A stretch of 64,000 nucleotides of DNA from Candidatus Fraserbacteria bacterium (GCA_037440025.1 JBBIUX010000006.1:11296-75295), one strand, 5' to 3'. Counted from the first letter of the stretch, positions 5,662 through 33,945 are shown. Numbers and translations: made by a program. Notes: generated by a model from the letters alone, not told the origin.

Positions 5662-5740
5662 GGACCTAACCCCAACCCCTTCCCTAAAGGGAAGGGGCAA
5701 ACTCCCCTCCCGCTTTAGGGGAGGGGCCTGGGGGAGAGGT
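5661..5740. repeat. REP-like double-hairpin repeat, family A (CTAACCCC-CCCTTCCCTAAAGGGAAGGGG..CCCCTCCCNCTTTAGGGGAGGGG..GGGGAGAGGT)
   Basis: Two adjacent perfect palindromes plus a GGGGAGAGGT tail that supplies the SD for tal; copies at 6412, 8258 (reverse) and 55889. Confidence 0.8.
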
Positions 5741-5748
5741 AAACGATC

Positions 5749-18786: not shown

Positions 18787-18851
18787 GGGCTGGCTATAAA
18801 GAGCGCAGTGGGGAAGCCCTCGGAGCGCACGCTTCGGGGGCTTTTGGTTTT

Positions 18852-18920
18852 GAATCACGGAAGGCACGGAATCGCCACGGAGAGCACAGAAGAATGGTTC
18901 TCTCTGTGCCCTCCGTGATG
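18852..18920. repeat. CACGGAAG-type long hairpin repeat (family C)
   Basis: GAATCACGGAAGGCACGGAATCGCCACGG...CTGTGCCCTCCGTGATG imperfect inverted repeat; same family at 23487, 24298, 25286, 25923, 31209, 31616, 32321, 33231. Confidence 0.75.
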
Positions 18921-18984
18921 CAGAGCTTGCACGGGAAAGGGGGAGTAGGTAGGATAGCAAAGTGATTCTCTGGAGGCATTATAT

Positions 18985-21138: not shown

Positions 21139-23355
21139 ATGCGAGTGATAATTGTTGTTGGGGTGTTGCTAGTGGTCGGAATAGTTGCTGAGGCACAGAC
21201 GCTACGAGTGACCGTGCCGGTGGATCTTGTCAATTGTGTATCGGGAGTGCCGCTGGTCGCGGGCCCGGACGCGGGGAGCGCTGTGGGTCCCGGCGGCGCT
21301 TGCGTTGTCGCTTCGGGCACTTACCCTGTAGCAGTTACCATTACCGTGCCCGGATTGATTCTGATTTCCACAAACGGCGCCATGGCCACGACGATCGCTG
21401 GCCCAGTCACTATAACTGCTGCGGCCAACGGTGTCACCCTTGGTCGAGCAGGCCAAGGATTTATGATCACCGGGGGCCTGACCGTAGGCGCTAATCAGAA
21501 CATTACTGTTGAGGACAGCATCTTCACAGGAAGTGGAGGGCCGGGAGTGTTGGTCGGTGCTCCAGGGGCTGTCCGTAATCTACGTTTTTTGAATCTTCAA
21601 GTACGCGCTAACGGAGGCGGGGGGATCATCTTCACGGGAGGATCTGTCGACGATCTGCTCATCACCGGGAGCGTGATCGAGACCAACGGAGGCCCGGGTA
21701 TAGGTTTCGCTATTGGCGGAAGCGTTCGCAGCTTCAACCTCTCTAGCAACCGCATCATTGGCAATGCGATCGGAGGGATCATCTTCGTTGGCCCCACCAA
21801 CGATGTTGAAGATAGCGAATTTTCTAATCTTATTGTACAAGGCAATGCCGGTCCGGGATTGGCTCTTGCTAACACCGGGCGCGTCATGGGGGTGGTGGTC
21901 TCTGGCAGTAACATCTCCAGTAACACCGGCGACAACGTCGTCTTTGGGAACGGCTTGACCTCAGATGTGGTGTTCGAGAACAACACTATAGAAAACGCCG
22001 CCGCCAACGGCGTAAACTTTTCCAATACTGGTGCGGTGGAAGACTTTGTCTTCCGGAACAACACCATCCAACGCAACGGCTTTAACGGCGTCTTGTTCTT
22101 CAACACCGGCAGGGTAGATAGCATTCAGATCCTTGACAACCGTCTGCGCAATAACGGTTTCCATAATCTTTTTATTAATCATCTGGGGCCTCGTGATTTC
22201 TCGGTCGGGCGGTTGACGATGGAGGGCGGCTTCGTCGACCAAGCGGGCGACAACGGCATCCGTATTGTGACTCTGACCACCGACATTGTCTTCATCACCT
22301 TGACCAATGTTCAAATCAGCAAGAACGGGGGGATAGGGGTCTGCTTACGCACAAACGGGGGAGCTATCGCTGACATCAAGTTTGAAGGAGCAGTTATCAA
22401 AGAAAACCAAGGGGGAGCAGGCTTAACTCCCTGTGATACAGCAGCTGCGCCGATCGGCTCTGGAGCGGAATTGATCACGCTGACGGGGAACATCGGTCCG
22501 GCAGAAGTTACTGGAAGCACCTTTGCCAATAATGGCGGCTTCGGCCTGCGCTTGCAATCGTTGGGGGCCGGTGGCGCGATGGGCGACGTGGGGCCGGTGG
22601 CTGTGCGAAACAGCGCATTCGATCAGAACGGCACGCGGGCCCCGGCGGGCTTGGGCTCTGGGTTCACCGCTCGAGGCCGAGGCGTCCGCGACATCTCCAT
22701 CAACCCCACCACAGCTAATAATAACAACGATCACGGCGTAGATATTCAAGCGACCAGTGATATTAGCAATGTCTCCATTACTGGAGGCGAGTTCTCCAAT
22801 AATGACCGCAACGTAGACACGATTGGCGCGGGGATCAACATCAGCGCCACGCAACGCCTGAGCGGTGTGAAAGTGACAGGAGCCAAGCTGATGTCGAATT
22901 CCCAGGGGGCGCGTGTTCAGGCCGACCGAGCTTCGGATAATCACATCAACCAGTGCGAGATCTCTGGCAATAGACAAGCTGGAGTTGAGGCCTCGATCAC
23001 GTCGGGAGACGATGTGGATGCAACGAACAACTACTGGGGCAGCCCTTCCGGCCCCAGCGGGACCAACGGCGCTGTGGGGCAGGTCACGGCCAGTCCGTTC
23101 TTGAGCGCCCCGCCGGGCGGTCCCACGCCGCCTACACCACCGACGCCACCCACACCGCCAACTCCACCGACCCCGCCGACGCCACCGGCGGGAGGCTTTG
23201 CCGCCTGCGCCGCAGGCGCAGATAACAGAATTGACGATCTAGAAATGCTGGGCATTCTCGATGCATGGATCAAGGGGCAGAGCTATCAAGCCTGCGGGGT
23301 GCCCACGGATTTGGACGTCTTGCAGGCGTTGGATCGCTGGGCGCGGGGAGTGTAG
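21139..23355 (+). CDS. Secreted parallel beta-helix protein, paralogue of the 13282 gene, with (PTPPT)n linker and C-terminal dockerin-like module
   Basis: Long stretches collinear with the 13282 product (NNNDHG..EFSNNDRNVDTIG.GI.IS, NYWGSPSGP); PTPPTPPTPPTPPTPPTPP; ATG at 21139 with GAGGGGGG SD. Confidence 0.7.
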   Translation: MRVIIVVGVLLVVGIVAEAQTLRVTVPVDLVNCVSGVPLVAGPDAGSAVGPGGACVVASGTYPVAVTITVPGLILISTNGAMATTIAGPVTITAAANGVTLGRAGQGFMITGGLTVGANQNITVEDSIFTGSGGPGVLVGAPGAVRNLRFLNLQVRANGGGGIIFTGGSVDDLLITGSVIETNGGPGIGFAIGGSVRSFNLSSNRIIGNAIGGIIFVGPTNDVEDSEFSNLIVQGNAGPGLALANTGRVMGVVVSGSNISSNTGDNVVFGNGLTSDVVFENNTIENAAANGVNFSNTGAVEDFVFRNNTIQRNGFNGVLFFNTGRVDSIQILDNRLRNNGFHNLFINHLGPRDFSVGRLTMEGGFVDQAGDNGIRIVTLTTDIVFITLTNVQISKNGGIGVCLRTNGGAIADIKFEGAVIKENQGGAGLTPCDTAAAPIGSGAELITLTGNIGPAEVTGSTFANNGGFGLRLQSLGAGGAMGDVGPVAVRNSAFDQNGTRAPAGLGSGFTARGRGVRDISINPTTANNNNDHGVDIQATSDISNVSITGGEFSNNDRNVDTIGAGINISATQRLSGVKVTGAKLMSNSQGARVQADRASDNHINQCEISGNRQAGVEASITSGDDVDATNNYWGSPSGPSGTNGAVGQVTASPFLSAPPGGPTPPTPPTPPTPPTPPTPPTPPAGGFAACAAGADNRIDDLEMLGILDAWIKGQSYQACGVPTDLDVLQALDRWARGV

Positions 23356-23483
23356 GCCCTCACCCCGCCCTGCGGGCACCCCGAGACGTTTTGGTGCAGC
23401 ATCTTTCCGAGAAAGCGGTCGCACCAAAACGTCTCGCCCTCTCCCGTAGTTGACCTACGGGAGAGGGGTTGGGGGTGAGGGCC
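23355..23483. repeat. Nested palindromic repeat, family B (GGCCCTCACCCC....GGGGGTGAGGGCC with inner GAGACGTTTTGGTGCAG/TCGCACCAAAACGTCTC)
   Basis: Outer and inner inverted repeats read directly; related copies at 33163, 62278 and in-frame in recG. Confidence 0.75.
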
Positions 23484-23486
23484 TCT

Positions 23487-23573
23487 GAATCACGGAAGGC
23501 GCGGAATCGCCACGGAGAGCACGGAAGATTTTTTCTGTGTCTTCCGTGGCCCGTTCGGTGTCCTCCGTGATTC
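23487..23573. repeat. Family C CACGGAAG hairpin repeat, copy with promoter tail
   Basis: ~135 bp near-identical to 31209-31338. Confidence 0.8.
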
Positions 23574-23578
23574 AAAGT

Positions 23579-23607
23579 TTGACCTGCAGAAGTGCCCAGG
23601 CTATACT
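23579..23607 (+). promoter_or_regulatory. Near-consensus sigma70 promoter TTGACC-17-TATACT embedded in the repeat tail
   Basis: TTGACC 23579-84, TATACT 23602-07, 17-nt spacer; ATG of next ORF at 23634. Confidence 0.6.
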
Positions 23608-23633
23608 GAAAGGGCTGAGGCGAGGTGTGAGCT

Positions 23634-23954
23634 ATGTCTGTCACGAAGTCGCAGCCAAAGCCCCAGGACGTAGAGAAATGGGGCGTCTATGCCAAGGCAA
23701 GTCGGCTCTTCGCGGAAAGGGTCAAAAACCTCCCCGGCGTCCGAGCCGTAGCAGCCAAATATTGCGGGGATTACGTGGATTTGTGGGTCTTCACCGACGA
23801 AGTCCACCAGAGCGAGTTGATCCACCCTGTGGGAGCGGCCCTCAAACAGCTCGGAGAGCAATTTCCTGAACTCCTCTTTGACTCGTTCGTAACACGTCAA
23901 GGGATCCCAGACGGCTTTGTAGCCTTCTTCCATGCCAACGCCCCAGGAGCATGA
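23634..23954 (+). CDS. Hypothetical protein, possibly nucleotidyltransferase-like
   Basis: 106 aa; GDYVDLWVF resembles a degenerate NT-fold motif; 23-nt overlap with next ORF. Confidence 0.3.
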   Translation: MSVTKSQPKPQDVEKWGVYAKASRLFAERVKNLPGVRAVAAKYCGDYVDLWVFTDEVHQSELIHPVGAALKQLGEQFPELLFDSFVTRQGIPDGFVAFFHANAPGA

Positions 23955-24285
23955 GGGGAAATCGCGCGCTATTGAGCGCCTCTTCTCCGTATTCAATGAC
24001 AATGAACCGGATCATTGGGATTGGCTGGCTATCGTAGCCTTCTACGCTGCGCTTCACTGGGTGGACGCTGCCCTGGCACACCAAGGGCTCCATCCGAGCA
24101 ACCATCGAGAGCGGAACCGGATGGCGCAAGGCTTGCCGATCTGGAACGAATATTACGAGCTCTACGCGGTAAGCCGGATTGCGCGCTACGAAGCAGGGCA
24201 TGTGTCCCAACAGATTGCCATACGCATGCGCGATCAGAATTTGCCCGCTGTACGTATCTGGGCTCAACAGACCAAGCAACCATAG
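23932..24285 (+). CDS. Hypothetical protein, possibly HEPN-like (R-x4-H in RYEAGH)
   Basis: 117 aa, helical, Rx4H motif; coupled to upstream ORF. Confidence 0.3.
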   Translation: MPTPQEHEGKSRAIERLFSVFNDNEPDHWDWLAIVAFYAALHWVDAALAHQGLHPSNHRERNRMAQGLPIWNEYYELYAVSRIARYEAGHVSQQIAIRMRDQNLPAVRIWAQQTKQP

Positions 24286-24297
24286 CGTTTGAAAGTA

Positions 24298-24393
24298 GAA
24301 TCACGGAAGGCGCGGAAATCGCCACGGGGGACACGGAAACGGCAGGTGTTTTCTGTGCCTTCCGTGGCTCTTTCTTCTGTGGGCTCCGTGGTT
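24298..24393. repeat. Family C hairpin repeat
   Basis: GAATCACGGAAGGCGCGGAAATCGCCACGG...GGCTCCGTGGTTC. Confidence 0.75.
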
Positions 24394-24486
24394 CAGAAGC
24401 GTTAGGGGATAGGTGAGGGGTGGCAAAGCGAACCTTCATCGGGTATAACTGAAATACCATGACCGCTATGCTTTTAGGAGAACTTA

Positions 24487-24759
24487 GTGCGCATTCGCAA
24501 GCTCCTGTGGAGCCAAGCTATCATCGAGAAATTGCACACAAAGCATCGAGTCTCGCCCAGCGAGGTCAAGGCCGTCTGTGCTGGCGCACATATAACATGG
24601 GCCGGACGACGTGGCACGTATTATCTGCTGGGACAGACCAAGAGCGGACGCTATCTCTTCGTCGTTGTGGCCCATAAAGGCTCCGGGGTGTTCAAAGTCA
24701 TCACTGCCCGAGATATGACCGAAGCCGAACGCCAACGCTTCTCGAGGAGGAGACCATGA
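24487..24759 (+). CDS. brnT: BrnT-family (DUF497) ribonuclease toxin
   Basis: 90 aa, GTG start; ...ETKH.V...EVE.VF...RYLTAFF/ RYLFVVVAHKG pattern of BrnT; overlaps antitoxin start. Confidence 0.65.
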   Translation: MRIRKLLWSQAIIEKLHTKHRVSPSEVKAVCAGAHITWAGRRGTYYLLGQTKSGRYLFVVVAHKGSGVFKVITARDMTEAERQRFSRRRP

Positions 24760-25103
24760 AACTCCCGAAATTTCGCTCCGAACAAGAAGAAGCAGCCTTC
24801 TGGGAGACCCACGACCTCAGCGATTATCTGGACGAGCTTGAGGAGATACAATTCGAGTGGGCTCCGGACGAAGACACCTGCCCCAGCTGCGGCGCGGCCA
24901 TGAAGCCTGAACAGTTCGAAGTCGAACTGCTGGAGGGGCTCTACCTGCGGAATCTGCGGCGATATCGCTGCCCGGTGTGCCAGACGGTCCAACTCACGCC
25001 GGAGTCGTTGGTGCACATCAACCAGACAGACAGCTTGATTAGGCGATTCGGATTAGCAGGGCTTCTGTTGCAAAAGGAGTTAGTAAGCGAGTTCAGAACC
25101 TAG
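24756..25103 (+). CDS. brnA: BrnA-like antitoxin with C-terminal zinc ribbon
   Basis: EEAAFWETHDLSDYLDE BrnA-type motif; CPSCG...CPVC. Confidence 0.6.
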   Translation: MKLPKFRSEQEEAAFWETHDLSDYLDELEEIQFEWAPDEDTCPSCGAAMKPEQFEVELLEGLYLRNLRRYRCPVCQTVQLTPESLVHINQTDSLIRRFGLAGLLLQKELVSEFRT

Positions 25104-25126
25104 CGCAAGCAAAAGCTGGCATCGAA

Positions 25127-25349
25127 GCGCCCCTGGGGGGAGACCCCCGGGGGCGGTGGTTTTTAACCTAACCCCCAAGCCCCCTTCCCAGCGAAGAGTC
25201 AAGAGTCTAGGAGTCGAGGGTCGAGAGACTCCAGACCCCCAGACTCTGGACCTTTCTGTAAGGGAGGGGCTAGGGGAGAGGTCTTGAACCACGGCAAGCA
25301 CGGAACCTGCCACGGGGAATACGGAAGACGGCGGGTCTTTTTCCGTGCC
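25127..25349. repeat. Composite intergenic repeat block: terminator-like GC hairpin+T-tract (family D), GAGTC/GACTC-rich repeat (family E), truncated family C hairpin
   Basis: GCGCCCCTGGGGGGAGACCCCCGGGGGCGGTGGTTTTTAACC; AGAGTCTAGGAGTCGAGGGTCGAGAGACTCCAGACCCCCAGACTCTGGACC; GAACCACGGCAAGCACGGAA... Confidence 0.75.
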
Positions 25350-25367
25350 TTAACGACACAGACGACT

Positions 25368-25478
25368 TTATAAATGCGGTGTCCGCCGCTCCGCCAGGTA
25401 GTCGCGGATCAGAGGAAGCACCGTAAATCCCAAAGCTGTTAGCCCAATGACCAGGAGAATAATGTACAGCGGTAACAT
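25368..25478 (-). CDS. Tiny single-TM peptide (36 aa, MLPLYIILLVIGLTALGFTVLPLIRDYLAERRTPHL), second gene of the small-membrane-peptide cassette
   Basis: Not in ORF track (<60 aa); ATG 2 nt after stop of upstream gene; paralogue of 31509-31616 product. Confidence 0.5.
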   Translation of the reverse strand: MLPLYIILLVIGLTALGFTVLPLIRDYLAERRTPHL

Positions 25479-25480
25479 AC

Positions 25481-25702
25481 TCACCCCCTCGCGATCTTCC
25501 TTAACCGTAAATAGCCGAAAATATAGATCAGCAACCAGATAATTGATCCCAGGACCGAGACCCCCAAGTGAAATCCTTCCGGGTTAAGAAACTGACCGAA
25601 GACCAGCGCGCCAATGGCAATATTCGCCACATCAAACAGCTTCTCGATAACAACGCGCTCTGCTTCGTGCTCTCCCGATAGAGGCTTTTCCTTTTTACTC
25701 AT
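25481..25702 (-). CDS. Small two-TM membrane protein (73 aa), paralogue of 31339-31509 product
   Basis: LFDVANIAIGALVFGQF...LGSIIWLLIYIFGY aligns with LMDVANYAAGALLIGQI...LGGAIWLCFYAIEE. Confidence 0.55.
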   Translation of the reverse strand: MSKKEKPLSGEHEAERVVIEKLFDVANIAIGALVFGQFLNPEGFHLGVSVLGSIIWLLIYIFGYLRLRKIARG

Positions 25703-25789
25703 GCTATTAGCAGTATAGAAGCCCCGTCCGGTTTTGTCAATGGTGGGAGCGCAGGGCGAGTGTTTTCCCCCTCACCCCTTGCTCCCCTC

Positions 25790-26013
25790 TCCCTTCGCGG
25801 TGGTTTTTGACCTAACCCCCCAGCCACCTTCCCAGCGAAGAGTCTAGGAGTCGAGGGTCGAGAGACTCCAGACCCCCAGACTCTGGACCTTTCTGTAAGG
25901 GAGGGGCTAGGGGAGAGGTCTGCATCACGGAAGGCGCGGAATCGCCACGGGGGACACGGAAACGGCAGGTGTTTTCAGTGCCTTCCGTGGCTCTTTCTGT
26001 GGGCTCCGTGGTT
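25790..26013. repeat. Composite repeat block: partial family D, family E (GAGTC-rich), family C hairpin
   Basis: Near-duplicate of the 25127-25349 block in the opposite arrangement around the small membrane gene. Confidence 0.75.
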
Positions 26014-26105
26014 CGAGCTTGCACCGCAAAGCCCCAGGAGGGAGGGAGAGGGGACAGCTTGAACGAAACCGCCGCATAGGGTAGGATGGCTAATCGGAGA
26101 GCACG

Positions 26106-26342
26106 ATGAGCACTGCCATAATGTCGAAACAAACAGAGAAAGCCAAGCAGTTCTATCGCCGGTTGGAGCCCCGCTTGCTCCCTGAGCATCGTGGGCAGAT
26201 CGTAGCCATCGAAATCGAGTCCGGGACTTATTTCCTCGGGGATGACGAGCTGGAGGTCGCCCGCCGTGCCCAAGCCCAATTCCCTGACAAACTCTTTTAT
26301 TTCTTCCGCGTCGGGGAACGCGCCGTCCACAAACTGCGCTAA
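26106..26342 (+). CDS. Small DUF5678-like protein (partner of retropepsin-like protease)
   Basis: 78 aa; stop immediately precedes start of protease gene (TAATG). Confidence 0.4.
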   Translation: MSTAIMSKQTEKAKQFYRRLEPRLLPEHRGQIVAIEIESGTYFLGDDELEVARRAQAQFPDKLFYFFRVGERAVHKLR

Positions 26343-26713
26343 TGCTTCGCGGACGGGTCAATGAGTACGGCGAGCCGCTGGTGGTGATCACCTTGGACTT
26401 GGGCCATAAACGCCAACGGCAGACTGCCATCATTGATACTGGTTTTAACGGTTACCTGAGCGTGCCCAAGCCCGTGATTCAGCAATCTGATTGGCAGTGG
26501 CTTGGCTTTGAGGACTATGAGCTGGCCTCCGGAGCCGTTGTCCGAGAGCAAGTCTACCGGGGAAGAATCATCTTCGATCAGAAACGACTGGAGGTCTACG
26601 TGGTGGCCACTGATTCCGCAGATATTTTGATCGGCACACGATTATTGCAAAGCAAGCGGCTGTTGATCGACTTTAGCAGCGACGCAGTTCACATCAAGGA
26701 CAGTCGCGACTAA
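26342..26713 (+). CDS. Retropepsin-like (clan AA) aspartic peptidase
   Basis: AIIDTGFNGYLSVP = DTG active-site motif in a ~120-aa single-lobe protease. Confidence 0.6.
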   Translation: MLRGRVNEYGEPLVVITLDLGHKRQRQTAIIDTGFNGYLSVPKPVIQQSDWQWLGFEDYELASGAVVREQVYRGRIIFDQKRLEVYVVATDSADILIGTRLLQSKRLLIDFSSDAVHIKDSRD

Positions 26714-26727
26714 GAAGGACAGCCTCG

Positions 26728-26830
26728 AGCGCCCCTGGGGGAGCGATCCCCGGGGGCGGTGGTTTTTGACCTAACCCCCGACTACTACAAAGGTGGGGAG
26801 GGGCTAGGGGAGAGGTCTCGCCGCGTGCAA
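26728..26830. repeat. Family D terminator-like hairpin + GGGGCTAGGGGAGAGGTC tail
   Basis: GAGCGCCCCTGGGGGAGCGATCCCCGGGGGCGGTGGTTTTTGACCTAACCCCC... Confidence 0.7.
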
Positions 26831-26881
26831 ACGGCTTGCACGGCTGTGGCTGGCGGAGTAGGATAACAAGGGTGATCGCGC

Positions 26882-27445
26882 ATGGCCACCAAAGCCCAGA
26901 TCAAATTCACCTACGAAGACTACAAGAGCCTGCCTTACTCAGAGCGCGAGCGCTTTGAGCTCCTGGAAGGAGAGCTGATCCCTATGCCGCCGTCCCCAGG
27001 ATTCGCCCATCAATCGGTCTCGTTGGAGCTGGTTACCCGACTCCATCTCTTTGTGCAGGAGAGAACATTAGGGACGGTCCTTGAGGCCCCCTTTGACGTA
27101 GTGCTGGGAGAGCCCGGGGAAGAGCAGGTCGTGCAGCCGGACATTCTCTTCGTCTCCAAGGAGCGACGCCGTATCATCCAGGAAGACGAAATTCGCGGAG
27201 CGCCTGACCTCGTCGTCGAAATTCTCTCCCCTTCTACGAAAGAGAAGGATCGCACCTACAAGCGCCGTCTCTATGCCAAGTATGGCGTCCGGGAATACTG
27301 GATCGCCGATCCCGACAGTCAGACCATCGAGGTACTCACGCTGGGCAAGCGGGGCTATGAACGGGCCGGGCTCTATCACAAAAACGAGATATTGGAGTCG
27401 CCGCTCTTGTCGGGTCTGCGAATTCCCCTGAGCGAAGTCTTATAG
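26882..27445 (+). CDS. Uma2-family (DUF820) restriction-endonuclease-fold protein, paralogue 1
   Basis: MATKAQIKFTYEDYKSLPY...QPDILFVS...GAPDLVVEILSPST (PD-(D/E)xK-like core). Confidence 0.75.
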   Translation: MATKAQIKFTYEDYKSLPYSERERFELLEGELIPMPPSPGFAHQSVSLELVTRLHLFVQERTLGTVLEAPFDVVLGEPGEEQVVQPDILFVSKERRRIIQEDEIRGAPDLVVEILSPSTKEKDRTYKRRLYAKYGVREYWIADPDSQTIEVLTLGKRGYERAGLYHKNEILESPLLSGLRIPLSEVL

Positions 27446-27455
27446 GACGGAGTCT

Positions 27456-28952
27456 TTGCTCTTTCCAACACGAAGACGGGTTTTGCTATTCGCTGCCATA
27501 GCTCTGTTGGGAGCAGCTTTGGGATTTGGCGGTCTCTTAGAAAGCTGCCAGCCCCCCAATAAAGCGCCGTTAGCGCGCTTCAGCTTTAGCCCCAAAGAGC
27601 CCAAAATCGGGGAGACCGTCACGTTTGACGGCTCGGCTTCGCGAGATCCCGACGGCAAGATTGTCAGCTATCTGTGGGATTTTGGCGACGGAGCGACCGC
27701 TCAGAACGTGACGACAACGCATGCGTTTCAGGAAGACGGCGAGTACGATGTCATTCTGCAGGTAATGGATGACCGCGGCACGAGCTCTAATGTGGAGAAA
27801 ACAGTGCGCGTTGCTCCGCTCAACGAACTGCCTACAGCAAGCTTCACCGTCGCCCCCAGCGAGCCGAAGACAAACCAATCTGTCACTTTTGACGCTTCAG
27901 CATCGGTTGATCCAGACGGCACGATCACAGCTTATACGTGGGAGTTCGGCGATCAAACGACAGGGCAAAACAAGATCGCCACGCACGTCTATAAGACGGC
28001 GGGCACGTACACCGTGAAGCTCACGGTGACGGACAACAAGGGCGCGAAATCTTCGGCCACTAAAGGAATTACTGTTATAGAGGCTCCGCCCAACGAGCCG
28101 CCGTTTGCGAAACTTGACTTCACCCCCGCGACCGCGACGGTCAATGAGCCCGTGAACTTCGACGCTTCCGAATCGCGCGACGACGGCCAGATTGTCAAAT
28201 ATCAATGGGATTTTGGCGACGGTGCCAGCGGTGAGGGTCAGCAGGTCTCGCACACATATAAAACGGCTGGGACGTTTATCGTCAAGCTGACGGTGACAGA
28301 CGATCTCGGTGCAACTGGTTCGACCACGCGCAGCGTGATCGTTCGCGAGTCTGCTGTCATAGAGTCGTTCGCCGTGCCAGGGGAGGAGCCCAGCGGGCTC
28401 GCCTGGGACGGGGAGAACTTCTGGCTGGCTGATATAGACAGCGAGAAGATCTATAAGCTCGATAAAGCCGGGAAGATTCTAAGCTCGTTCGCTGCCCCAG
28501 GGAGCACGCCGACCGGGCTGGCCTGGGATGGGGAGAACTTGTGGGTTGCCGATAGCCTGGATGCACGGATTTATAAAGTCAATCCCCAGAATGGAAAAGT
28601 CACCGGCGCTTTTGATCTCCCCAACTCCGATCCCCAAGGGCTCGCCTGGGATGGCGAGAATCTCTGGGTGATGGACGCCGACACGGGGAAGCTCGAAAAG
28701 CTCGACTCCAACGGGGATGTGCTCGAATCGTTTGACTCCCCCGGCGACTCCCCGGCAGGCCTTACCTGGGACGGCAAAAATCTATGGATGAGTGACAGCG
28801 ATGCCGGGTTAATCAAAATTGACCCAGCGACGGGCAAACAGATCAGCACCGTCAAAGCCCCCGGTCCCGACCCGCGCGGCCTGGCTTGGGATGGGACGTA
28901 TCTGTGGGTCGTGGATGGTGAGGACCTCAAAGTCTATCGGGTGGCGCCATGA
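27456..28952 (+). CDS. Lipoprotein with three PKD domains and a beta-propeller of ~6 'GLAWDGENLWV' blades
   Basis: VTFDGSASRDPDGKIVSYLWDFGDG x3; periodic P.GLAWDG.NLWV.D x6; TTG start, LLESC lipobox-like. Confidence 0.6.
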   Translation: MLFPTRRRVLLFAAIALLGAALGFGGLLESCQPPNKAPLARFSFSPKEPKIGETVTFDGSASRDPDGKIVSYLWDFGDGATAQNVTTTHAFQEDGEYDVILQVMDDRGTSSNVEKTVRVAPLNELPTASFTVAPSEPKTNQSVTFDASASVDPDGTITAYTWEFGDQTTGQNKIATHVYKTAGTYTVKLTVTDNKGAKSSATKGITVIEAPPNEPPFAKLDFTPATATVNEPVNFDASESRDDGQIVKYQWDFGDGASGEGQQVSHTYKTAGTFIVKLTVTDDLGATGSTTRSVIVRESAVIESFAVPGEEPSGLAWDGENFWLADIDSEKIYKLDKAGKILSSFAAPGSTPTGLAWDGENLWVADSLDARIYKVNPQNGKVTGAFDLPNSDPQGLAWDGENLWVMDADTGKLEKLDSNGDVLESFDSPGDSPAGLTWDGKNLWMSDSDAGLIKIDPATGKQISTVKAPGPDPRGLAWDGTYLWVVDGEDLKVYRVAP

Positions 28953-31147
28953 AGTTTTTCAGTCTTTTGGGGATCGGGCTGTTGGCGCTTTCTGTCGGTG
29001 CTGGTGCCCAGACGGGACCGCCGCCAGCCAAATTTGCTTATGACCAACTCGAAAGCCGGCTCGTTGAAGTCGCCCAACGCACCGGAGACAGAACAGCTTG
29101 GGCGCTGCAACACGGGATTCGCTTGGAATCGGGTACCGTGAGCGTCATTCTTGAAAGCGATCAGGTCCGTGAGCAGTCTCTTACGGCGCTCGGCGCTCAG
29201 ATTGAGGCCCGATCTTCCCGTCTGGTGCGCGTGCGCGTGCCCGCTGAAAAGCTCTTTGAACTGGCAGAGAGTTTGCCCCAGAGCGCCTATGTGCGGCTCC
29301 CGCTGCGTCCCTGGGGTGCAACAATCGAAGGTCTCCAGGTGACCGGTGCGAGCGGGTTTCACGCCCAAGGTGTTCGTGGCCAGGGGGTGCGCGTGGCCGT
29401 GATAGATATCGGGTTTTCGGGGCTCTCCGCGGCCATCGCTGCGGGCCGGATTGCTCACGTCGTCTTTCACAAAGACTACACGGGGCTGGGGATGGAAGGT
29501 GGCGACGAACCCCATGGAACAGATGTGACAGAGATTCTCTCCGCCATGGCCCCGGAGGCCGAGTTCTTACTCTATCGAATCACAGATGAAGTTGATTTAG
29601 AGAACGCCGTGGAAGACGCGCTGCAGCGCGGTGTCGAGATTATCAATCACTCGGTCGGCTGGGTGAACACCGATTTTGGCGACGGGACGGGACTGATCGC
29701 ACAGATCGCGCAAAACGCCGTTCGTCGTGGGGCCGTCTGGGTCAACGCTGCCGGAAACGCCGCGCAACGGCATTGGGCAGGGCTATGGCAAGATTTTGAC
29801 AGAGATGGTTGGCTCAATGTCGAAGACGAACGCGAGCGGCTCGCGCTCGAAGTCGAGGCCGGCGACACTATAGAGATCTTTCTGACGTGGGACGAATGGC
29901 CTCGGGCGCGTACGGACTATGATCTCTATCTGTTCTACGATCTTAATGGCGATGGGCAGCTCGATGCCGAAATGGAGATAGTCGCCTCTTCGGTCAATCG
30001 CCAAAGCGGCAGACAGCCCCCAACAGAGAGCATCGAATATCTCGCTCCCCTGCCCGGGCACTATGCTATTGCCGTTGGAGGCCCACCGGAGGCAGCGGGG
30101 AGCGCATTGGAGATTTTCAGCTTTAATCACGACCTGACACCGGCGGTTGCCGCGGGGAGTCTGTTGGCTCCGGCGCAGGCTCCCGACGTGATCGCCGTGG
30201 GTGCTGTAGATTACCAAGAGTATACCCAGGGCACGATCGAGCCTTTTAGCTCCCAAGGGCCGACCAGTGATGGCCGAATGAAACCCGATCTGGCGGCCCC
30301 CGACGGCGTGCTGGTCTCTACAGGGCGCTTCTTTGGGACCTCGGCGTCAGCCCCATTTGTTGCTGGTGCCGCAGCGCTTCTGCTCTCTCTTGAGCCTAAC
30401 TTAAGCCCGGCTCAACTGCGCGTGCGCCTGCTCGCGCAGACTGCTGACGTTGGTCCTGTTGGGGCGGACAACGTTTTTGGCGCGGGCAAGCTGCTATTGC
30501 GCTTTAATACGCAACCGTCGGTTCCCGAACCTGCCGTTTCACAGCTTGATGTAGAGGCGAAGACCAGTGAATTGAAGTGCAAGGAGGGCAAGACAAAGAC
30601 CCTGAGATTCAAAGCGGAAAACACCAGCGATGATGACATTGAAATTGACGAAACCCTCATCGCTACGAATGCCTATTTCGAGCGTGATAGGGACAAGGCA
30701 GCCGGCAAGGTCGTGAAGGCAGACAAGAAGAAGACTCTGTCTGTCAAGGTGGAGTGTCTGCAGACAGAGACCCTCAGCAAGAGCGAATACGAGCAGTATG
30801 TGAGCTTCAGGACCGACGAAGGCGGAGGCCGGATTGCTTATGCTTATCCATCGGGCGTTGGCTCGGTGGTCGCTACGGCTTTGAGTGTCAATGGCGTGCG
30901 GCTCTCCAAGAGCAGAGCGATCTTCGACGTGCAGGGTGCCCCCTTGGCCCAGGTGCAGGTCTTCAGCCTGAGCGGCAAGATGGTCTACGATAGCGGCATG
31001 GTCGCGAGCAGCTCACTCTCCTGGAACCTGCTCAATGAGTCCGGGCAGCGCGTGCCCAATGGCGTCTATCTCTATGTCGTGACGATGCAGGCGCCCGATG
31101 GCCGGTTGGTCAAGAGCAAGATCCAGAAGCTAGTCGTGTTGAGATAG
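28949..31147 (+). CDS. Subtilisin-like S8 serine peptidase with T9SS type-A C-terminal sorting domain
   Basis: D (VAVIDIG), H (HGTDV), S (GTSASAPFVAGAAALL) catalytic motifs; C-terminus VQVFSLSGKMV...NGVYLYVVTMQAPDGRLVKSKIQKLVVLR. Confidence 0.8.
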   Translation: MKFFSLLGIGLLALSVGAGAQTGPPPAKFAYDQLESRLVEVAQRTGDRTAWALQHGIRLESGTVSVILESDQVREQSLTALGAQIEARSSRLVRVRVPAEKLFELAESLPQSAYVRLPLRPWGATIEGLQVTGASGFHAQGVRGQGVRVAVIDIGFSGLSAAIAAGRIAHVVFHKDYTGLGMEGGDEPHGTDVTEILSAMAPEAEFLLYRITDEVDLENAVEDALQRGVEIINHSVGWVNTDFGDGTGLIAQIAQNAVRRGAVWVNAAGNAAQRHWAGLWQDFDRDGWLNVEDERERLALEVEAGDTIEIFLTWDEWPRARTDYDLYLFYDLNGDGQLDAEMEIVASSVNRQSGRQPPTESIEYLAPLPGHYAIAVGGPPEAAGSALEIFSFNHDLTPAVAAGSLLAPAQAPDVIAVGAVDYQEYTQGTIEPFSSQGPTSDGRMKPDLAAPDGVLVSTGRFFGTSASAPFVAGAAALLLSLEPNLSPAQLRVRLLAQTADVGPVGADNVFGAGKLLLRFNTQPSVPEPAVSQLDVEAKTSELKCKEGKTKTLRFKAENTSDDDIEIDETLIATNAYFERDRDKAAGKVVKADKKKTLSVKVECLQTETLSKSEYEQYVSFRTDEGGGRIAYAYPSGVGSVVATALSVNGVRLSKSRAIFDVQGAPLAQVQVFSLSGKMVYDSGMVASSSLSWNLLNESGQRVPNGVYLYVVTMQAPDGRLVKSKIQKLVVLR

Positions 31148-31170
31148 TCGTATAAAAGAACGGAATCGGA

Positions 31171-31295
31171 GCGCCCTTGGGGGGAGACCCCCGGGGGCGT
31201 TGGTTTTTGAATCACGGAAGGCGCGGAATCGCACGGAAAGCACGGAAGGTTTTTTTCTGTGTCTTCTGTGGCCTGTTCGGTGTCCTCCGTGATTC
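31171..31295. repeat. Family D terminator-like hairpin + family C hairpin (second copy of the promoter-bearing unit)
   Basis: GCGCCCTTGGGGGGAGACCCCCGGGGGCGTTGGTTTTTGAATCACGGAAGG... Confidence 0.8.
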
Positions 31296-31300
31296 AAAGT

Positions 31301-31329
31301 TTGACCTGCAGAAGTGCCCAGGCTATACT
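31301..31329 (+). promoter_or_regulatory. TTGACC-17-TATACT promoter (identical to 23579-23607); near-leaderless start
   Basis: ATG at 31339 lies only 9 nt after the -10 hexamer. Confidence 0.6.
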
Positions 31330-31338
31330 GAAAGGGCA

Positions 31339-31509
31339 ATGAACCCGAAACAGCGAGAAGTCTTGGCAGAGAAACTGATGGACGTCGCCAACTATGCAGC
31401 CGGTGCATTGCTGATCGGCCAGATCATTAGCAAAGAGTTCATCATGGCTTGGACGCTCCTGGGCGGAGCGATTTGGTTATGCTTCTACGCGATTGAGGAG
31501 GTGCAGTAA
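31339..31509 (+). CDS. Small two-TM membrane protein (56 aa), cassette gene 1
   Basis: MNPKQREVLAEKLMDVANYAAGALLIGQIISKEFIMAWTLLGGAIWLCFYAIEEVQ; paralogue of the 25481-25702(-) product. Confidence 0.55.
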   Translation: MNPKQREVLAEKLMDVANYAAGALLIGQIISKEFIMAWTLLGGAIWLCFYAIEEVQ

Positions 31510-31616
31510 TGGATACAGTTTTGTTGCTGTTGCTCATCATCCTCGTGGGGGGACTAGCCTTCACGCTGCCCACGATCATTGGGGACTGGCGGCGGGCGCG
31601 CTCCGGGCATAAGTAG
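31509..31616 (+). CDS. Tiny single-TM peptide (35 aa), cassette gene 2
   Basis: MDTVLLLLLIILVGGLAFTLPTIIGDWRRARSGHK; start overlaps upstream stop (TAATG); paralogue of 25368-25478(-). Confidence 0.5.
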   Translation: MDTVLLLLLIILVGGLAFTLPTIIGDWRRARSGHK

Positions 31617-31701
31617 AATCACGGAAGGCGCGGAATCGCCACGGAGAGCACGGAAGTTTTTTCTGTGCCTTCCGTGGTTCTTTCTGTGGACTCCGTGATT
31701 C
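31616..31701. repeat. Family C hairpin repeat
   Basis: GAATCACGGAAGGCGCGGAATCGCCACGGAGAGCACGGAAG-TTTTTTCTGTGCCTTCCGTGG... Confidence 0.8.
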
Positions 31702-31707
31702 CAACGC

Positions 31708-31751
31708 TTGTACAGTGAGGGGGAATGGAGTACCATAACAAGGTGATCTCT
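31708..31751 (+). promoter_or_regulatory. Conserved Uma2 leader: TTGTAC-17-TACCAT promoter-like element + AAGGTGA SD
   Basis: Identical leader at 33303-33346; related TAGGATAAC-AAGGTGATC leaders at 26858 and 33918. Confidence 0.45.
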
Positions 31752-32312
31752 ATGGCCACCAAAGCCCAGATCAAGTTTACTTACGAAGATTACAAAAGCC
31801 TGCCCTACGTGGAGCGCGAGCGCTTTGAGCTCCTGGAAGGAGAGTTGATTATGGCCCCGTCGCCCAATACAGAGCATCAAGAAATTGCTCGTGAACTCTT
31901 CCGCCCTCTGGGGGAGCATATCCGTAGCCATAACCTAGGGAAGATCTATTTTGCTCCTTTAGATGTCGTGCTAGGGGAACCCGGCAACGAACAGGTCGTC
32001 CAACCTGATATTCTCTTTGTCTCTCAAGCCCGTCGCACGATTATCCGCGATGATGAGATCCGCGGAGCCCCAGACTTAGTCGTGGAGATCATCTCGCTCT
32101 CGACGGAAGAGAAGGACCGGGTTTTCAAGCGCCGCCTCTATGCCAAGTATGGCGTCCAGGAATACTGGATCACCGATCCCGACAGTCAGACCATCGAGGT
32201 ACTCACGCTGGGCAAGCGGGGCTACGAGCGGGCGGGACTGTATACGAAGAGCGAGACGCTGAAATCGCCGCTCTTGCCGGGCTTGCACATCCCCCTTGAT
32301 GAGATCTTCTAG
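31752..32312 (+). CDS. Uma2-family endonuclease-fold protein, paralogue 2
   Basis: Same N- and C-terminal sequences as paralogue 1 (~95% nt identity in 3' third), divergent middle. Confidence 0.75.
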   Translation: MATKAQIKFTYEDYKSLPYVERERFELLEGELIMAPSPNTEHQEIARELFRPLGEHIRSHNLGKIYFAPLDVVLGEPGNEQVVQPDILFVSQARRTIIRDDEIRGAPDLVVEIISLSTEEKDRVFKRRLYAKYGVQEYWITDPDSQTIEVLTLGKRGYERAGLYTKSETLKSPLLPGLHIPLDEIF

Positions 32313-32320
32313 AGGCCTTT

Positions 32321-32393
32321 GAATCACGGAAGGCACGGAATCGCACGGAGAGCACGGAAGAACGGCGGGTCTTTTCAGTGTCTTCCGTGGCTC
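32321..32393. repeat. Family C hairpin repeat
   Basis: GAATCACGGAAGGCACGGAATCGCACGGAGAGCACGGAAG...TCTTCCGTGGCTC. Confidence 0.75.
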
Positions 32394-32459
32394 CGCGAGA
32401 GTTCCGGGTTTTCAGGAGACGGCTTGAACGCAACCAAAGAGCGTGATAGGATAAGCTAG

Positions 32460-33110: not shown

Positions 33111-33295
33111 GGCCGCCCTTGGGGGGAGACCCCCGGGGGCGTTTGTTTTTGGGGGCCCTCACCCTGGCCCCTCACCCCTCTGGCTCCCCTCTCCCTCGGA
33201 GGGGAGAGGGGACGGGGGTGAGGGCCTGTGCATCACGGAACGCACGGAAGACTTTCTCTGTGCCTCCCGTGGCTTTTTCAGTGCGTTCTGTGATT
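33111..33295. repeat. Composite repeat block: family D hairpin, family B palindrome, family C hairpin
   Basis: GGCCGCCCTTGGGGGGAGACCCCCGGGGGCGTTTGTTTTTGGGGGCCCTCACCC...GGGGGTGAGGGCCTGTGCATCACGGAACGCACGGAAG... Confidence 0.75.
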
Positions 33296-33346
33296 CCAAC
33301 GCTTGTACAGTGAGGGGGAATGGAGTACCATAACAAGGTGATCTCT

Positions 33347-33940
33347 ATGGCCATCAAAGCCCAGATCAAATTCACCTACGAAGATTACAAGAGCCTGCCC
33401 GAATCTGAGACCGAGCGCTATGAGCTTGTAGAGGGGGAGTTGGTGATGGTTCCTTCACCAGATACAGAACATCAAGATATTGTCGGTAACCTCTTTCGGT
33501 TGCTCAGTGACCACGTCCATAAGCACCGGTTGGGCAAGGTCTACCTCGCTCCCCTGGACGTCGTGCTGGGGGAGCGAGATGAGGAGGAGGTTGTCCAACC
33601 GGATATTCTGTACGTCTCCTACCAGCGTCGGGGTATCATCGCCCGCGAGGAGATCCGTGGTGCTCCAGACCTGATCGTCGAGGTGCTCTCCCCCTCCACA
33701 GCTCAACGTGACCGCACCTTGAAAAAGAAGTTGTACGCACGTCACGGGGTGCAGGAGTATTGGATTGTCGACCCGAAAGCACAAACGCTCGAGGTCTATG
33801 AGTGGCGACCGAAGGGCTTCGAGCGTGTTGGGCTCTATGGTGCTGAGCAAACGCTTACTTCTCGTCTCTTGCCAACCTTACACATTCCCCTGAGAGAAAT
33901 TTTCAATGACCGAGACGGACAAGGTAGGATAACAAGGTGA
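33347..33940 (+). CDS. Uma2-family endonuclease-fold protein, paralogue 3 (3' end reads through the conserved leader of paralogue 4)
   Basis: MAIKAQIKFTYEDYKSLPE...; C-terminus ...DRDGQGRITR encoded by the GGTAGGATAACAAGGTGA leader. Confidence 0.7.
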   Translation: MAIKAQIKFTYEDYKSLPESETERYELVEGELVMVPSPDTEHQDIVGNLFRLLSDHVHKHRLGKVYLAPLDVVLGERDEEEVVQPDILYVSYQRRGIIAREEIRGAPDLIVEVLSPSTAQRDRTLKKKLYARHGVQEYWIVDPKAQTLEVYEWRPKGFERVGLYGAEQTLTSRLLPTLHIPLREIFNDRDGQGRITR

Positions 33941-33945
33941 TCTCT

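What the first reader, a model, noticed from the sequence alone, without database searches (positions are those of the whole stretch)
23487..31338. Portable near-consensus promoter carried on a hairpin repeat: two ~135-bp near-identical copies drive unrelated gene cassettes
Two copies (23487-23613 and 31209-31338) share a CACGGAAG-type hairpin followed by an identical tail GTGATTCAAAGTTTGACCTGCAGAAGTGCCCAGGCTATACTGAAAGGG. The tail is TTGACC-17-TATACT, a near-perfect sigma70 -35/-10 pair. One copy precedes a possible NT/HEPN-like pair, which starts 27 nt after the -10. The other precedes the small-membrane-peptide cassette, where the ATG lies only 9 nt after the -10 and would be effectively leaderless. 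The repeat therefore looks like a mobile promoter that inserts ahead of accessory genes.
Basis: seen in the sequence. Interest (0 to 1): 0.72.

Follow-up and report, generated by a model that had tools for sequence, protein, structure and literature searches.

The report
Hairpin repeat joined to reused promoters
Two near-identical 130-base stretches ahead of unrelated small genes are real: each joins a hairpin repeat found nine times in this gene island to an ordinary-looking promoter, and the pair most likely became identical when one promoter module overwrote an older related one, not by a promoter jumping in.

Summary
Copies at 23486-23615 and 31208-31337 are about 97% identical, and they share an exact 48-nt tail holding TTGACC-17-TATACT.

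They are not a two-copy element. The ~85-nt hairpin has four CACGGAA units per arm and occurs 9 times in the window. All copies are in gene-sense orientation, and all lie in an accessory island (18.8-33.3 kb). Eight of the nine are followed by a same-strand ORF start. In five copies a TTGNNC-17-TAnnnT pair starts 4-7 nt after the hairpin; in two more (H5, H8) it lies 12-44 nt after.

Between tail subfamilies the two hexamers are conserved but the spacer is not, which argues for real sigma70-type promoters. Related genomes labelled Bipolaricaulota or Fraserbacteria show the same design, including other tails reused ahead of unrelated genes.

In the closest relatives both cassettes already have their own hairpin plus TATACT promoter, and the two tails differ there. 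Hairpins and tails also assort independently in the window. The A/B identity is therefore best read as recent gene conversion between existing modules, not insertion of an autonomous mobile promoter.

No integrase, transposase, Rfam family or paper matches. The NT/HEPN guess is unsupported. I class this as a new member of a known kind: putative mobile promoters and promoter-associated palindromic repeats.

The parts
23486..23574 (+). Hairpin H2 (copy A). An imperfect palindrome with 4 CACGGAA-type units in the left arm and 4 TTCCGTG-type units in the right arm.
   Evidence: DNA fold -28.6 kcal/mol, z -5.8; profile score 82 bits on +, 55 on -
23575..23615 (+). Tail of copy A. The -35 TTGACC is at 23579-23584 and the -10 TATACT at 23602-23607. 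Identity with copy B ends at 23615.
23634..24285 (+). Two-gene cassette behind copy A (106 aa at 23634-23954, 117 aa at 23932-24285). The pair is conserved and its function is unknown; it is not recognisably NT/HEPN.
   Evidence: pair conserved in L145-L150
31208..31296 (+). Hairpin H6 (copy B), 0.94 identical to H2.
31297..31337 (+). Tail of copy B. The -35 is at 31301-31306 and the -10 at 31324-31329. It is identical to the tail of copy A.
31339..31616 (+). Small membrane peptide cassette (56 aa at 31339-31509, 35 aa at 31509-31616). The ATG has 9 nt between it and the -10. The N-terminus MNxKQREV is conserved in relatives with the same spacing.
31170..31201 (+). Intrinsic-terminator-like hairpin plus T-run directly upstream of H6. 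It is one of four near-identical copies (25128, 26730, 31170, 33114).
18851..18955 (+). H1 (internally shortened) plus TTGCAC-17-TAGGAT (18927-18955), ahead of the 139-aa ORF at 18985.
24298..24394 (+). H3. Its tail is degenerate. It is preceded by AAGTAG, the same 6 nt that end the small-peptide gene in front of H7. It lies ahead of the 72-aa ORF and a CopG-like gene.
   Evidence: (D9)
25285..25351 (+). H4, a truncated copy that lacks the right arm. It is followed by minus-strand small genes.
25922..26087 (+). H5 (0.94 identical to H3), then a decayed TTGCAC-17-GAGGGA, then TTGAAC-17-TAGGAT (26059-26087), ahead of the 78-aa and 123-aa pair.
31616..31736 (+). H7 plus TTGTAC-17-TACCAT (31708-31736), ahead of the Uma2 gene at 31725.
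32320..32452 (+). H8 plus TTGAAC-17-TAGGAT (32424-32452), ahead of the DUF433/DUF5615 pair.
33230..33331 (+). H9 (short and diverged) plus TTGTAC-17-TACCAT (33303-33331). The tail is 100% identical to that of H7 over 65 nt. It lies ahead of the Uma2 gene at 33320.

Best explanation
The two copies are the most recently homogenised pair in a family of composite intergenic modules that head the gene cassettes of an accessory island.

Each module has two separable parts. The first is an ~85-95-nt imperfect palindrome, TTTGAATCACGGAAGG...CCTTCCGTGATTCAAA. Each arm holds four CACGGAA units spaced 9-11 nt apart. It is a MITE/REP-like repeat family of the lineage labelled Bipolaricaulota/Fraserbacteria. 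The second part is a sigma70-type promoter, TTGNNC-17-TAnnnT. It usually begins 4-7 nt after the palindrome and fires into the next cassette with a short leader or almost none.

Shown: the anatomy, the copy number, the orientation, the conservation of the hexamers and their spacing, the reuse of homologous tails ahead of unrelated genes in several genomes, the shuffling of cassette order between close relatives with hairpins at the block ends, and the independent assortment of hairpin and tail.

Inferred: the hairpin-plus-TTGACC...TATACT module that belongs to the 106/117-aa cassette overwrote the older, related module of the small-peptide cassette. The mechanism would be gene conversion, anchored on the left in the hairpin and on the right in the shared GCTATACTG box. 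The promoter is thus reused through recombination among repeats, not through autonomous transposition.

Also inferred, with less confidence: the hairpin acts as a boundary element. As sense RNA it would form a stem-loop that ends or protects the upstream transcript and insulates the cassette's own promoter. As repeated DNA it supplies the homology that lets cassettes be duplicated, deleted and reshuffled.
For: There are nine hairpin loci, all scoring 17-27 bits better on the + strand and all between 18.85 and 33.3 kb. None lies among the flanking housekeeping genes.

TTGNNC-17-TANNNT occurs 9 times on the + strand, against 2.1 expected. Seven of these sit within about 45 nt after a hairpin, five of them within 4-7 nt.

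Pairwise identity between tail subfamilies is 0.82 for the -35, 0.62 for the -10, 0.36 for the spacer and 0.33 past the -10. The spacing is 17 nt in 10 of 11 tails.

The same architecture appears in the syntenic relative L034. There a different tail, TTGCAC-17-TAGGAT, occurs three times, ahead of an antitoxin/PIN pair, the DUF433 pair and RecG. It also appears in L170, where 4 of 6 motif hits follow hairpins, and in L045, L104 and L113.

In L145, L146 and L170 the 106/117-aa cassette has a hairpin plus TTGACC-17-TATACT. The small-peptide cassette there has a different tail...GTGTGCTATACTGGGGGCGATG. The window's tail has the exact TTGACC -35 at 17-nt spacing and GGCTATACT, like the 106/117-type tails; its gapped identity is 0.77 to that type and 0.56-0.72 to the small-peptide type.

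Copies A and B differ by about 3%, while the window and L145 differ by about 13% over the same block. The homogenisation therefore came after the lineage split.

The pattern is a mosaic. H3-H5 are 0.94 identical in the hairpin and 0.60 in the tail. H7-H9 are 0.66 and 1.00. H2-H6 are 0.94 and 0.94. Upstream flanks pair differently again.

Synteny blocks start at a hairpin start (23486) and end just before the next hairpin (24294), and cassette order differs between close relatives.

Two junctions show imprecise recombination. H3 carries the AAGTAG donor flank. L170 has a deletion through GGCACGG microhomology.
Against: No transcript data exist, so promoter activity and the transcription start are inferred only. 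The generic promoter scan is not enriched over the region (7 found against 6.4 expected); the case rests on position and conservation.

The A-to-B direction of conversion rests on tail similarity that is only moderately different (0.77 against 0.56-0.72).

The right-hand homology anchor is short, about 10 nt.

A hairpin role at the RNA level is weakly supported. The sense-strand G.U excess in the window and L034 (55 against 24) is absent in L145 and L146. It may simply reflect shared ancestry of the copies. No covariation test is possible, because the paired cores are invariant and can pair in several registers. Copies with only the left arm persist (L146, L170, H4). This suggests that the CACGGAA units themselves, and not the stem, may be what matters.

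Only 64 kb of the source genome could be examined.
Confidence: 0.6

Rival explanations
1. The hairpin plus tail is a single non-autonomous mobile element, a MITE with an outward-facing promoter. A transposase encoded elsewhere moves it, and it has inserted ahead of both cassettes.
For: Copies A and B have sharp identity boundaries: TGAATCACGG on the left and GAAAGGGC on the right. The hairpin has terminal inverted repeats and many copies. MITE-like relatives with CACGGAA arrays exist in many phyla. Homologous tails precede unrelated genes in several genomes.
Against: The tail lies outside the inverted repeat. No target-site duplication is visible. Hairpin and tail assort independently. Orthologous cassettes in relatives already had their own differing modules. 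H3 carries 6 nt of a donor flank, which means imprecise ends. No transposase recurs beside the elements in 51 loci.
Confidence: 0.12
2. The hairpins are recombination sites of an integron-like cassette array, used by a site-specific recombinase encoded outside the window. The cassettes are then the mobile parts, and the modules mark their junctions.
For: The region is an array of short cassettes (toxin-antitoxin-like pairs, Uma2, small peptides), all in one orientation, separated by similar ~85-nt imperfect hairpins that fold better on one strand. Cassette order and content differ between close relatives, with breakpoints at hairpins.
Against: No tyrosine recombinase was found among the 40 largest ORFs of the window that were scanned. 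The hairpin lacks the AAC...GTT core triplets of attC. Shared sequence extends 40-60 nt beyond the hairpin. Each cassette has its own promoter. Several kilobase-sized surface-protein genes lie between hairpins. The junctions look imprecise.
Confidence: 0.1
3. The CACGGAA units are binding sites for a DNA-binding protein, such as a regulator or silencer of the island. The hairpin is then an operator array placed just upstream of the -35, and its palindromic shape is secondary. This can coexist with the best explanation.
For: The units are spaced 9-11 bp apart, about one helical turn. The 7-nt cores are invariant while the linkers vary. Copies with only the left arm keep four units directly upstream of a promoter (L146, L170). 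The distance from the last unit to the -35 is constant within 4-7 nt in five window copies and in L034, L045, L104 and L113.
Against: No candidate binding protein was identified. In other genomes the hairpin sits between a promoter-like box and the RBS, or next to the 3' ends of genes. The invariance of the left arm is partly an ascertainment effect of the search pattern.
Confidence: 0.15
4. The tail is not a promoter. The A/B identity is a neutral leftover of a segmental duplication, and the hexamers match the consensus by chance.
For: The generic promoter-scan count equals the shuffle expectation. There is no expression evidence.
Against: The hexamers and the 17-nt spacing are conserved while the spacer diverges, across 11 tails in 6 genomes. 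Seven of the nine motif hits on the + strand lie within about 45 nt after a hairpin. An ORF start follows within 9-30 nt of the -10 in each case. The ATG-to-TATACT spacing is conserved with the protein N-terminus.
Confidence: 0.06

Closest known systems
Putative mobile promoters (PMPs; Matus-Garcia, Nijveen and van Passel 2012, PMC3488235)
   Same: Both are conserved non-coding sequence of at least 50 nt at 80% identity or more, within 150 nt upstream of non-homologous CDSs. Here the stretch is 130 nt at about 97%. PMP families are often two-member and often head hypothetical genes. That paper itself suggests that families of two or three copies arise by recombination and not by transposition.
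   Different: PMP is an operational class with no mechanism attached. Here the module can be dissected into a repeat hairpin plus a promoter that recombine independently. The orthologous state in relatives shows homogenisation of modules that already existed.
[quoted passage not shown]
   Same: These are short palindromic intergenic repeats in many copies, placed next to genes, that influence transcription. The hairpin is co-transcribed with neighbouring genes. (PMC3488235 cites both as MITEs carrying partial promoters. That CREE transcripts are processed by RNase III is from my own knowledge.)
   Different: In CREE the promoter elements lie inside the element's termini, and the element has a TA target duplication. 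Here the complete -35/-10 pair lies outside the palindrome, no target duplication is seen, and there is no sequence similarity.
REPINs (REP doublets forming hairpins, mobilised by RAYT transposases; PMC8049555)
   Same: Both are imperfect hairpins of about 80-100 nt, made of two inverted arms, confined to intergenic space, forming within-genome sequence populations with subfamilies.
   Different: The arms here are arrays of four 7-nt direct units, not single palindromic REPs. No RAYT gene was seen, although only 64 kb plus scattered loci could be examined.
Integron cassette arrays with attC sites
   Same: Both are one-directional arrays of small accessory cassettes rich in toxin-antitoxin genes, separated by similar imperfect hairpins of 60-140 nt, with fast cassette turnover between relatives.
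   Different: There is no integrase in the window and no AAC/GTT core. Each cassette has its own promoter right after the hairpin. Homology extends beyond the hairpin, and the junctions are imprecise.

Membership tests
Putative mobile promoter (operational class, PMC3488235) | At least 50 nt at 80% identity or more, shared within the 100-150 nt upstream of translation starts | tested here: met
   130 nt at about 97% identity. The shared stretch ends 18 nt before the ATG at 23634 and 1 nt before the ATG at 31339.
Putative mobile promoter (operational class, PMC3488235) | The downstream CDSs are non-homologous, and the upstream neighbouring CDSs are not duplicated | tested here: met
   The 106/117-aa pair and the 56/35-aa membrane peptides are unrelated. 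The upstream flanks differ: a beta-helix gene plus a G-rich palindrome on one side, an S8 peptidase plus a terminator on the other.
MITE | Terminal inverted repeats, small size and no coding capacity | tested here: met
   TTTGAATCACGGAAGG...CCTTCCGTGATTCAAA, 65-97 nt.
MITE | Target-site duplication flanking each copy | tested here: not met
   No direct repeat flanks any of the 9 window copies or the copies in other phyla that were inspected. H3 carries 6 nt of a donor flank instead.
MITE | An autonomous IS with the same termini that encodes the transposase | not testable with these tools
   None was found next to the elements in 51 loci or in the Aquisphaera plasmid.
Integron / attC array | An IntI tyrosine recombinase adjacent to the array | tested here: not met
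   No Phage_integrase hit among the 40 ORFs scanned, which cover all large ORFs of the window. A site elsewhere in the genome cannot be excluded.
Integron / attC array | R''/R' core sites RYYYAAC ... GTTRRRY at the hairpin ends | tested here: not met
   The ends are GAATCAC ... GTGATTC in all copies.
REPIN / RAYT system | Two inverted REP sequences forming a hairpin, many copies, intergenic location | tested here: inconclusive
   The hairpin of two inverted arms and the multiple copies are met. The arms are arrays of direct units and are not themselves REP palindromes.
REPIN / RAYT system | A RAYT (IS200-like Y1 transposase) gene flanked by REPs in the genome | not testable with these tools
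   Absent from the window. The rest of the genome is not available.
Sigma70-type promoter | -35 and -10 hexamers at 16-18 nt spacing, conserved among homologs, upstream of a same-strand gene | tested here: met
Sigma70-type promoter | A transcript 5' end 5-9 nt downstream of the -10 | not testable with these tools
   No transcriptome data are available for this uncultured lineage.
Known structured RNA (Rfam 15) | A match at a family's gathering score | tested here: not met
   Only a sub-threshold chance hit to a plant miRNA model, at 34 bits against a gathering score of 102. Nothing was found for the related elements in other phyla.

The most novel reading that the evidence does not exclude
The CACGGAA hairpins could be the junction sites of an undescribed cassette system in candidate phyla. 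It would be integron-like in layout but would lack a linked integrase, and every cassette would bring its own promoter immediately after the repeat. The hairpins would serve a dedicated recombinase or DNA-binding protein encoded elsewhere. The many Uma2 nuclease-like genes that sit among them are one speculative candidate. Related elements built from the same 9-nt CACGGAA units occur in at least eight phyla (Planctomycetota, Gammaproteobacteria, Betaproteobacteria, Chloroflexota, Bacteroidota, Thermotogota and others), with no Rfam family and no paper found. The hairpin would then belong to a widespread, unrecognised element superfamily with a conserved protein partner.
Probability: 0.15. Interest if true: 0.65.

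Novelty: new member of a known kind. Interest (0 to 1): 0.4.

Why it matters
This case shows in readable detail how an uncultured lineage wires accessory genes for expression. A standard boundary repeat joined to a short, near-consensus promoter heads each cassette, and recombination among the repeats moves, duplicates, deletes and re-promotes the cassettes. It is also a worked example of promoter reuse in which the ancestral state can be seen in relatives. That lets gene conversion be told apart from insertion. If confirmed, the promoters (TTGNNC-17-TAnnnT with very short leaders) would be among the first defined for this lineage. The repeat family could also help with binning and with recognising genomic islands. 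The hairpin's relatives in many phyla are undescribed as far as I could find, and may deserve their own study.

Tried and rejected
- **Integron/attC reading:** rejected. There is no integrase in the window and no AAC/GTT cores.
- **Rfam on the region and on related loci:** nothing above threshold.
- **Covariation test of the hairpin:** uninformative. RNAalifold chose an out-of-register fold, because any CACGGAA unit can pair with any TTCCGTG unit and the cores are invariant.
- **Sense-strand G.U bias as evidence for an RNA function:** seen in the window and L034 but not in L145/L146, so it was downgraded.
- **Genome-wide tail count:** not possible. Exact-protein look-ups of two window proteins found no record. 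The degenerate tail pattern found nothing in metagenome contigs. The hairpin-end plus TTGACC pattern gave 27 chance or coding hits.
- **Viral contigs:** 18 hits, all coding or chance.
- **Plasmid collection:** no match to the module. The generic CACGGAA element matched only an unannotated intergenic copy in an Aquisphaera plasmid.
- **Recurrent neighbouring gene (transposase):** none. Only surface proteins and Uma2 recur.
- **NT/HEPN identity of the cassette behind copy A:** no support from Pfam, NCBIfam or PDB.
- **Literature:** no paper contains the repeat sequence. Nothing on repeats in Bipolaricaulota was found. The supplement of the PMP paper is not held.


Full report
**1. The observation**

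Window 23486-23615 and 31208-31337 align with 5-6 differences, all inside the hairpin. None of 100 shuffles produced a match. The tail contains TTGACC-17-TATACT at 23579-23607 and 31301-31329.

The ATG of a 106-aa ORF starts 27 nt after the first -10. The ATG of a 56-aa ORF follows the second -10 after 9 intervening nt. Identity stops at GAAAGGGC, 8 nt past the -10, which is about where transcription would start. The hairpin folds much better than shuffled sequence, with z scores of -4.5 to -6.

**2. It is not a two-copy element**

Pattern and profile searches find nine hairpin loci: 18851, 23486, 24298, 25285 (truncated), 25922, 31208, 31616, 32320 and 33230. Each scores 17-27 bits better on the + strand. 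All lie between 18.85 and 33.3 kb.

This stretch is an accessory island. It holds four Uma2 genes, a DUF433/DUF5615 pair, a CopG-like gene, other small pairs, and large beta-helix, PKD and S8 surface proteins. All are on the + strand. Housekeeping genes flank the island: ArgS, FtsY, transketolase, RecG, S2, EF-Ts, PyrH and DnaB.

The hairpin is an imperfect palindrome, TTTGAATCACGGAAGG...CCTTCCGTGATTCAAA. The left arm has four CACGGAA-type units spaced 9-11 nt apart, and the right arm has four TTCCGTG-type units. No Rfam family matches.

**3. The tails behave like promoters**

Eight of the nine hairpins are followed by an ORF start on the same strand. In five of them (H1, H2, H6, H7, H9) a TTGNNC-17-TAnnnT pair starts 4-7 nt after ...CCGTGATT. 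In H5 and H8 the matching pair lies further out, 44 and 12 nt after the hairpin. H3 has only a degenerate tail. An ORF start follows each -10 within 9-30 nt.

The loose motif occurs nine times on the + strand of the whole window, against 2.1 expected. Seven of those nine lie within about 45 nt after a hairpin, and an eighth precedes a Uma2 gene. A generic promoter scan is not enriched over the region (7 found against 6.4 expected). The argument is therefore positional and comparative.

Among 11 tail subfamilies from six genomes, pairwise identity is 0.82 in the -35, 0.62 in the -10, 0.36 in the spacer and 0.33 after the -10. The spacing is 17 nt in ten of them. That is the pattern expected of functional sigma70-type promoters.

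The near-leaderless layout of copy B is also conserved. In L146 (twice) and L170 the small-peptide gene starts 9 nt after TATACT, and the N-terminus MN(A/P)KQREV is conserved.

**4. Relatives**

The hairpin core is enriched in MAGs labelled Candidatus Bipolaricaulota/Acetothermia and Fraserbacteria. Four sets of loci are informative.

- **L034** is syntenic with the window. RecG is 78% identical at the nucleotide level, and the M14 peptidase, the DUF433 pair, Uma2 and the small peptides are shared. It has the same architecture but a different reused tail, AATCTCTTGCACAGCGCAGCAGAGCAGGGTAGGATA. This tail occurs three times, ahead of an antitoxin/PIN pair, the DUF433 pair and RecG.
- **L104 and L113**, from two other genomes, carry clear homologs of the window's own tail, TTGACC-17-TATACTGAA, ahead of yet other genes.
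- **L170**, a 20-kb stretch of a close relative, has 4-5 hairpins, all sense-oriented and all in its island. Four of its six + strand motif hits directly follow hairpins.
- **Other Bipolaricaulota loci** show the hairpin directly upstream of an RBS with no promoter in between. Elsewhere it sits downstream of a TGATAGAAT box, or next to the 3' ends of genes.

Hairpin and promoter are therefore separable.

**5. How A and B became identical**

The 106-aa protein has homologs at 60-89% identity, always paired with a 117-aa partner. In the closest relatives (L145, L146, L170; 89% protein identity) this cassette is preceded by a hairpin plus AAGCTCTTGACCGGCTAGAACTAAAAGGCTATACTGGAGGGC. In the same genomes the small-peptide cassette is preceded by a left-arm hairpin plus GCTTTGCTCCAAGCCGCAGTTGTGCTATACTGGGGGCGATG. 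Both cassettes thus already had a module of this kind, with related but clearly different tails.

The window's tail has the exact TTGACC -35 at 17-nt spacing and GGCTATACT, like the 106/117-type tails of L145, L146, L104 and L113. Its gapped identity is 0.77 to L145/L146. Its identity to the small-peptide type is 0.56-0.72. Copies A and B differ by about 3%, while the window and L145 differ by about 13% over the same block. The simplest reading is that after the lineages split, the module of the 106/117 cassette overwrote the module of the small-peptide cassette. The conversion would be anchored in the hairpin on the left and in the shared GCTATACTG box on the right. The direction is only moderately supported.

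**6. Recombination, not a single mobile unit**

Within the window the parts assort independently (H7/H9):

| Pair | Hairpin identity | Tail identity |
|---|---|---|
| H2-H6 | 0.94 | 0.94 |
| H3-H5 | 0.94 | 0.60 |
| H7-H9 | 0.66 | 1.00 |

For H7-H9 the identical stretch runs 65 nt through the ATG, although the Uma2 genes behind them are only about 75% identical. Upstream flanks pair differently again (H2 with H9, H1 with H6).

Synteny blocks with L145/L146 begin at 23486, a hairpin start, and end at 24294, just before the next hairpin. Cassette order differs between these close relatives.

Junctions are imprecise. H3 is preceded by AAGTAG, the last six bases of the small-peptide gene exactly as in front of H7. 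In L170, hairpin unit 2 is fused to a TAGGAT box through GGCACGG microhomology. No target-site duplications are seen. No transposase recurs next to the elements.

**7. What the hairpin does**

This remains inferred. As RNA the sense strand is 10-16 kcal/mol more stable in the window's copies. G.U pairs outnumber the reciprocal A.C mismatches 55 to 24 in the window and L034. But the copies share ancestry, and the bias is absent in L145/L146. Covariation cannot be tested, because the cores are invariant and several pairing registers are possible.

Three hairpins start within about 12 nt of the upstream stop codon with no other terminator. Others follow a canonical terminator. Four Bipolaricaulota genomes retain a hairpin at one orthologous dtd-gene junction, so some copies persist for a long time.

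I favour a boundary role: a 3' stem-loop or insulator for the upstream transcript, and a source of homology for cassette shuffling. The helical-phase unit spacing and the surviving one-arm copies keep a protein-binding array as a live alternative.

**8. Comparison with known systems**

The A/B pair meets the operational definition of a putative mobile promoter. The paper that defines the class notes that families of two or three copies probably arise by recombination (PMC3488235). Correia and ERIC elements are the nearest mechanistic analogues, being palindromic repeats that carry promoter parts. There, however, the promoter parts lie inside the element.

REPINs resemble the hairpin in shape, but no RAYT gene was seen. 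Integron membership fails on both the integrase and the core sites. No paper in the library contains the repeat sequence.

**9. Verdict**

The proposed mechanism, a promoter-bearing unit that inserts itself, is not supported for this pair. It is a new member of a known kind and of moderate interest.

The unexplained wide distribution of CACGGAA-unit elements across phyla is the most open-ended lead.

Noticed in passing
L006 3821-3889; L117 419-551 and 7446-7521; L106 3802-3854; L053 2399-2436; L108 3669-3757; L095 4520-4666; L041 5315-5514 and 6400-6607; L058; L098; L017 3045-3078; L169 2501-2658: MITE-like elements occur in many distant phyla: Gammaproteobacteria, Betaproteobacteria, Chloroflexota, Bacteroidota, Planctomycetota, Thermotogota and others. 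Their termini are inverted arrays of three 9-nt CACGGAA units (AACCACGGAAnnCACGGAAnnCACGGAA). Some share an identical 26-mer. No Rfam family, no paper and no adjacent transposase was found.
   Followed up: partly
window 24293-24298 and 31611-31616: H3 is preceded by AAGTAG. These are the same six bases that end the small-peptide gene (CAT-AAG-TAG) in front of H7. The homology with L145/L146 breaks just upstream of it. This looks like a donor-flank footprint of an imprecise copying event.
   Followed up: partly
L170 9205-9235: Hairpin units 1-2 (GAATCACGGAAGGCACGG) are fused directly to the TAGGAT -10 box of the 78/123-aa pair. The rest of the hairpin and the -35 seem to have been deleted through GGCACGG microhomology.
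   Followed up: no
window 26882-27445, 31725-32312, 33320-33940, 33937-34509: Four Uma2 (PF05685) paralogs lie within 8 kb. They share a conserved promoter and leader (TTGNAC-17-TAnnAT-AACAAGGTGATC...ATGGCCACC). The same gene family recurs next to hairpins in L002, L034, L045, L146 and L170.
   Followed up: partly
window 25128-25155, 26730-26758, 31170-31201, 33114-33141: There are four near-identical intrinsic-terminator-like hairpins (CGCCCCTGGGGGGAGACCCCCGGGGGCG plus a T-run), each ending a cassette. A related one is at 18812-18845. Terminators are thus also a reused module here.
   Followed up: no
window 23355-23485, 33160-33229; also 5696-5749, 6446-6499, 25894-25921, 26798-26824, 55925-55978, 62321-62368: A second repeat family, of the GGGAGAGGGG...GGGGGTGAGGGCC type and partly palindromic, is scattered over the whole window, including between housekeeping genes. 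It lies directly upstream of H2 and H9.
   Followed up: no
window 25201-25284 and 25838-25921: An exact 84-nt direct repeat brackets a 637-nt segment. The segment holds minus-strand small genes (25368-25702) and the best promoter match in the region, on the minus strand (TTGACA-17-TATACT, 11/12, 25740-25712). The segment is conserved in L034 at 85% identity.
   Followed up: no
L010 2390-2470, L040 26-119, L055 5426-5512 (minus strand), L107 4761-4852: Four different Bipolaricaulota genomes keep a hairpin at the same orthologous junction, between a dtd-like gene and a gene starting MGQGQPKYRRSS. A TGATAGAAT box lies just upstream of the hairpin and an RBS just after it. There the hairpin would lie in a 5' UTR.
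   Followed up: no
window 26106-26713: The 78-aa and 123-aa pair is a conserved cassette, also present in L145, L146 and L170. The 123-aa protein resembles clan AA aspartic proteases (TIGR03698, E 1.7e-13, below the family cut-off).
   Followed up: no
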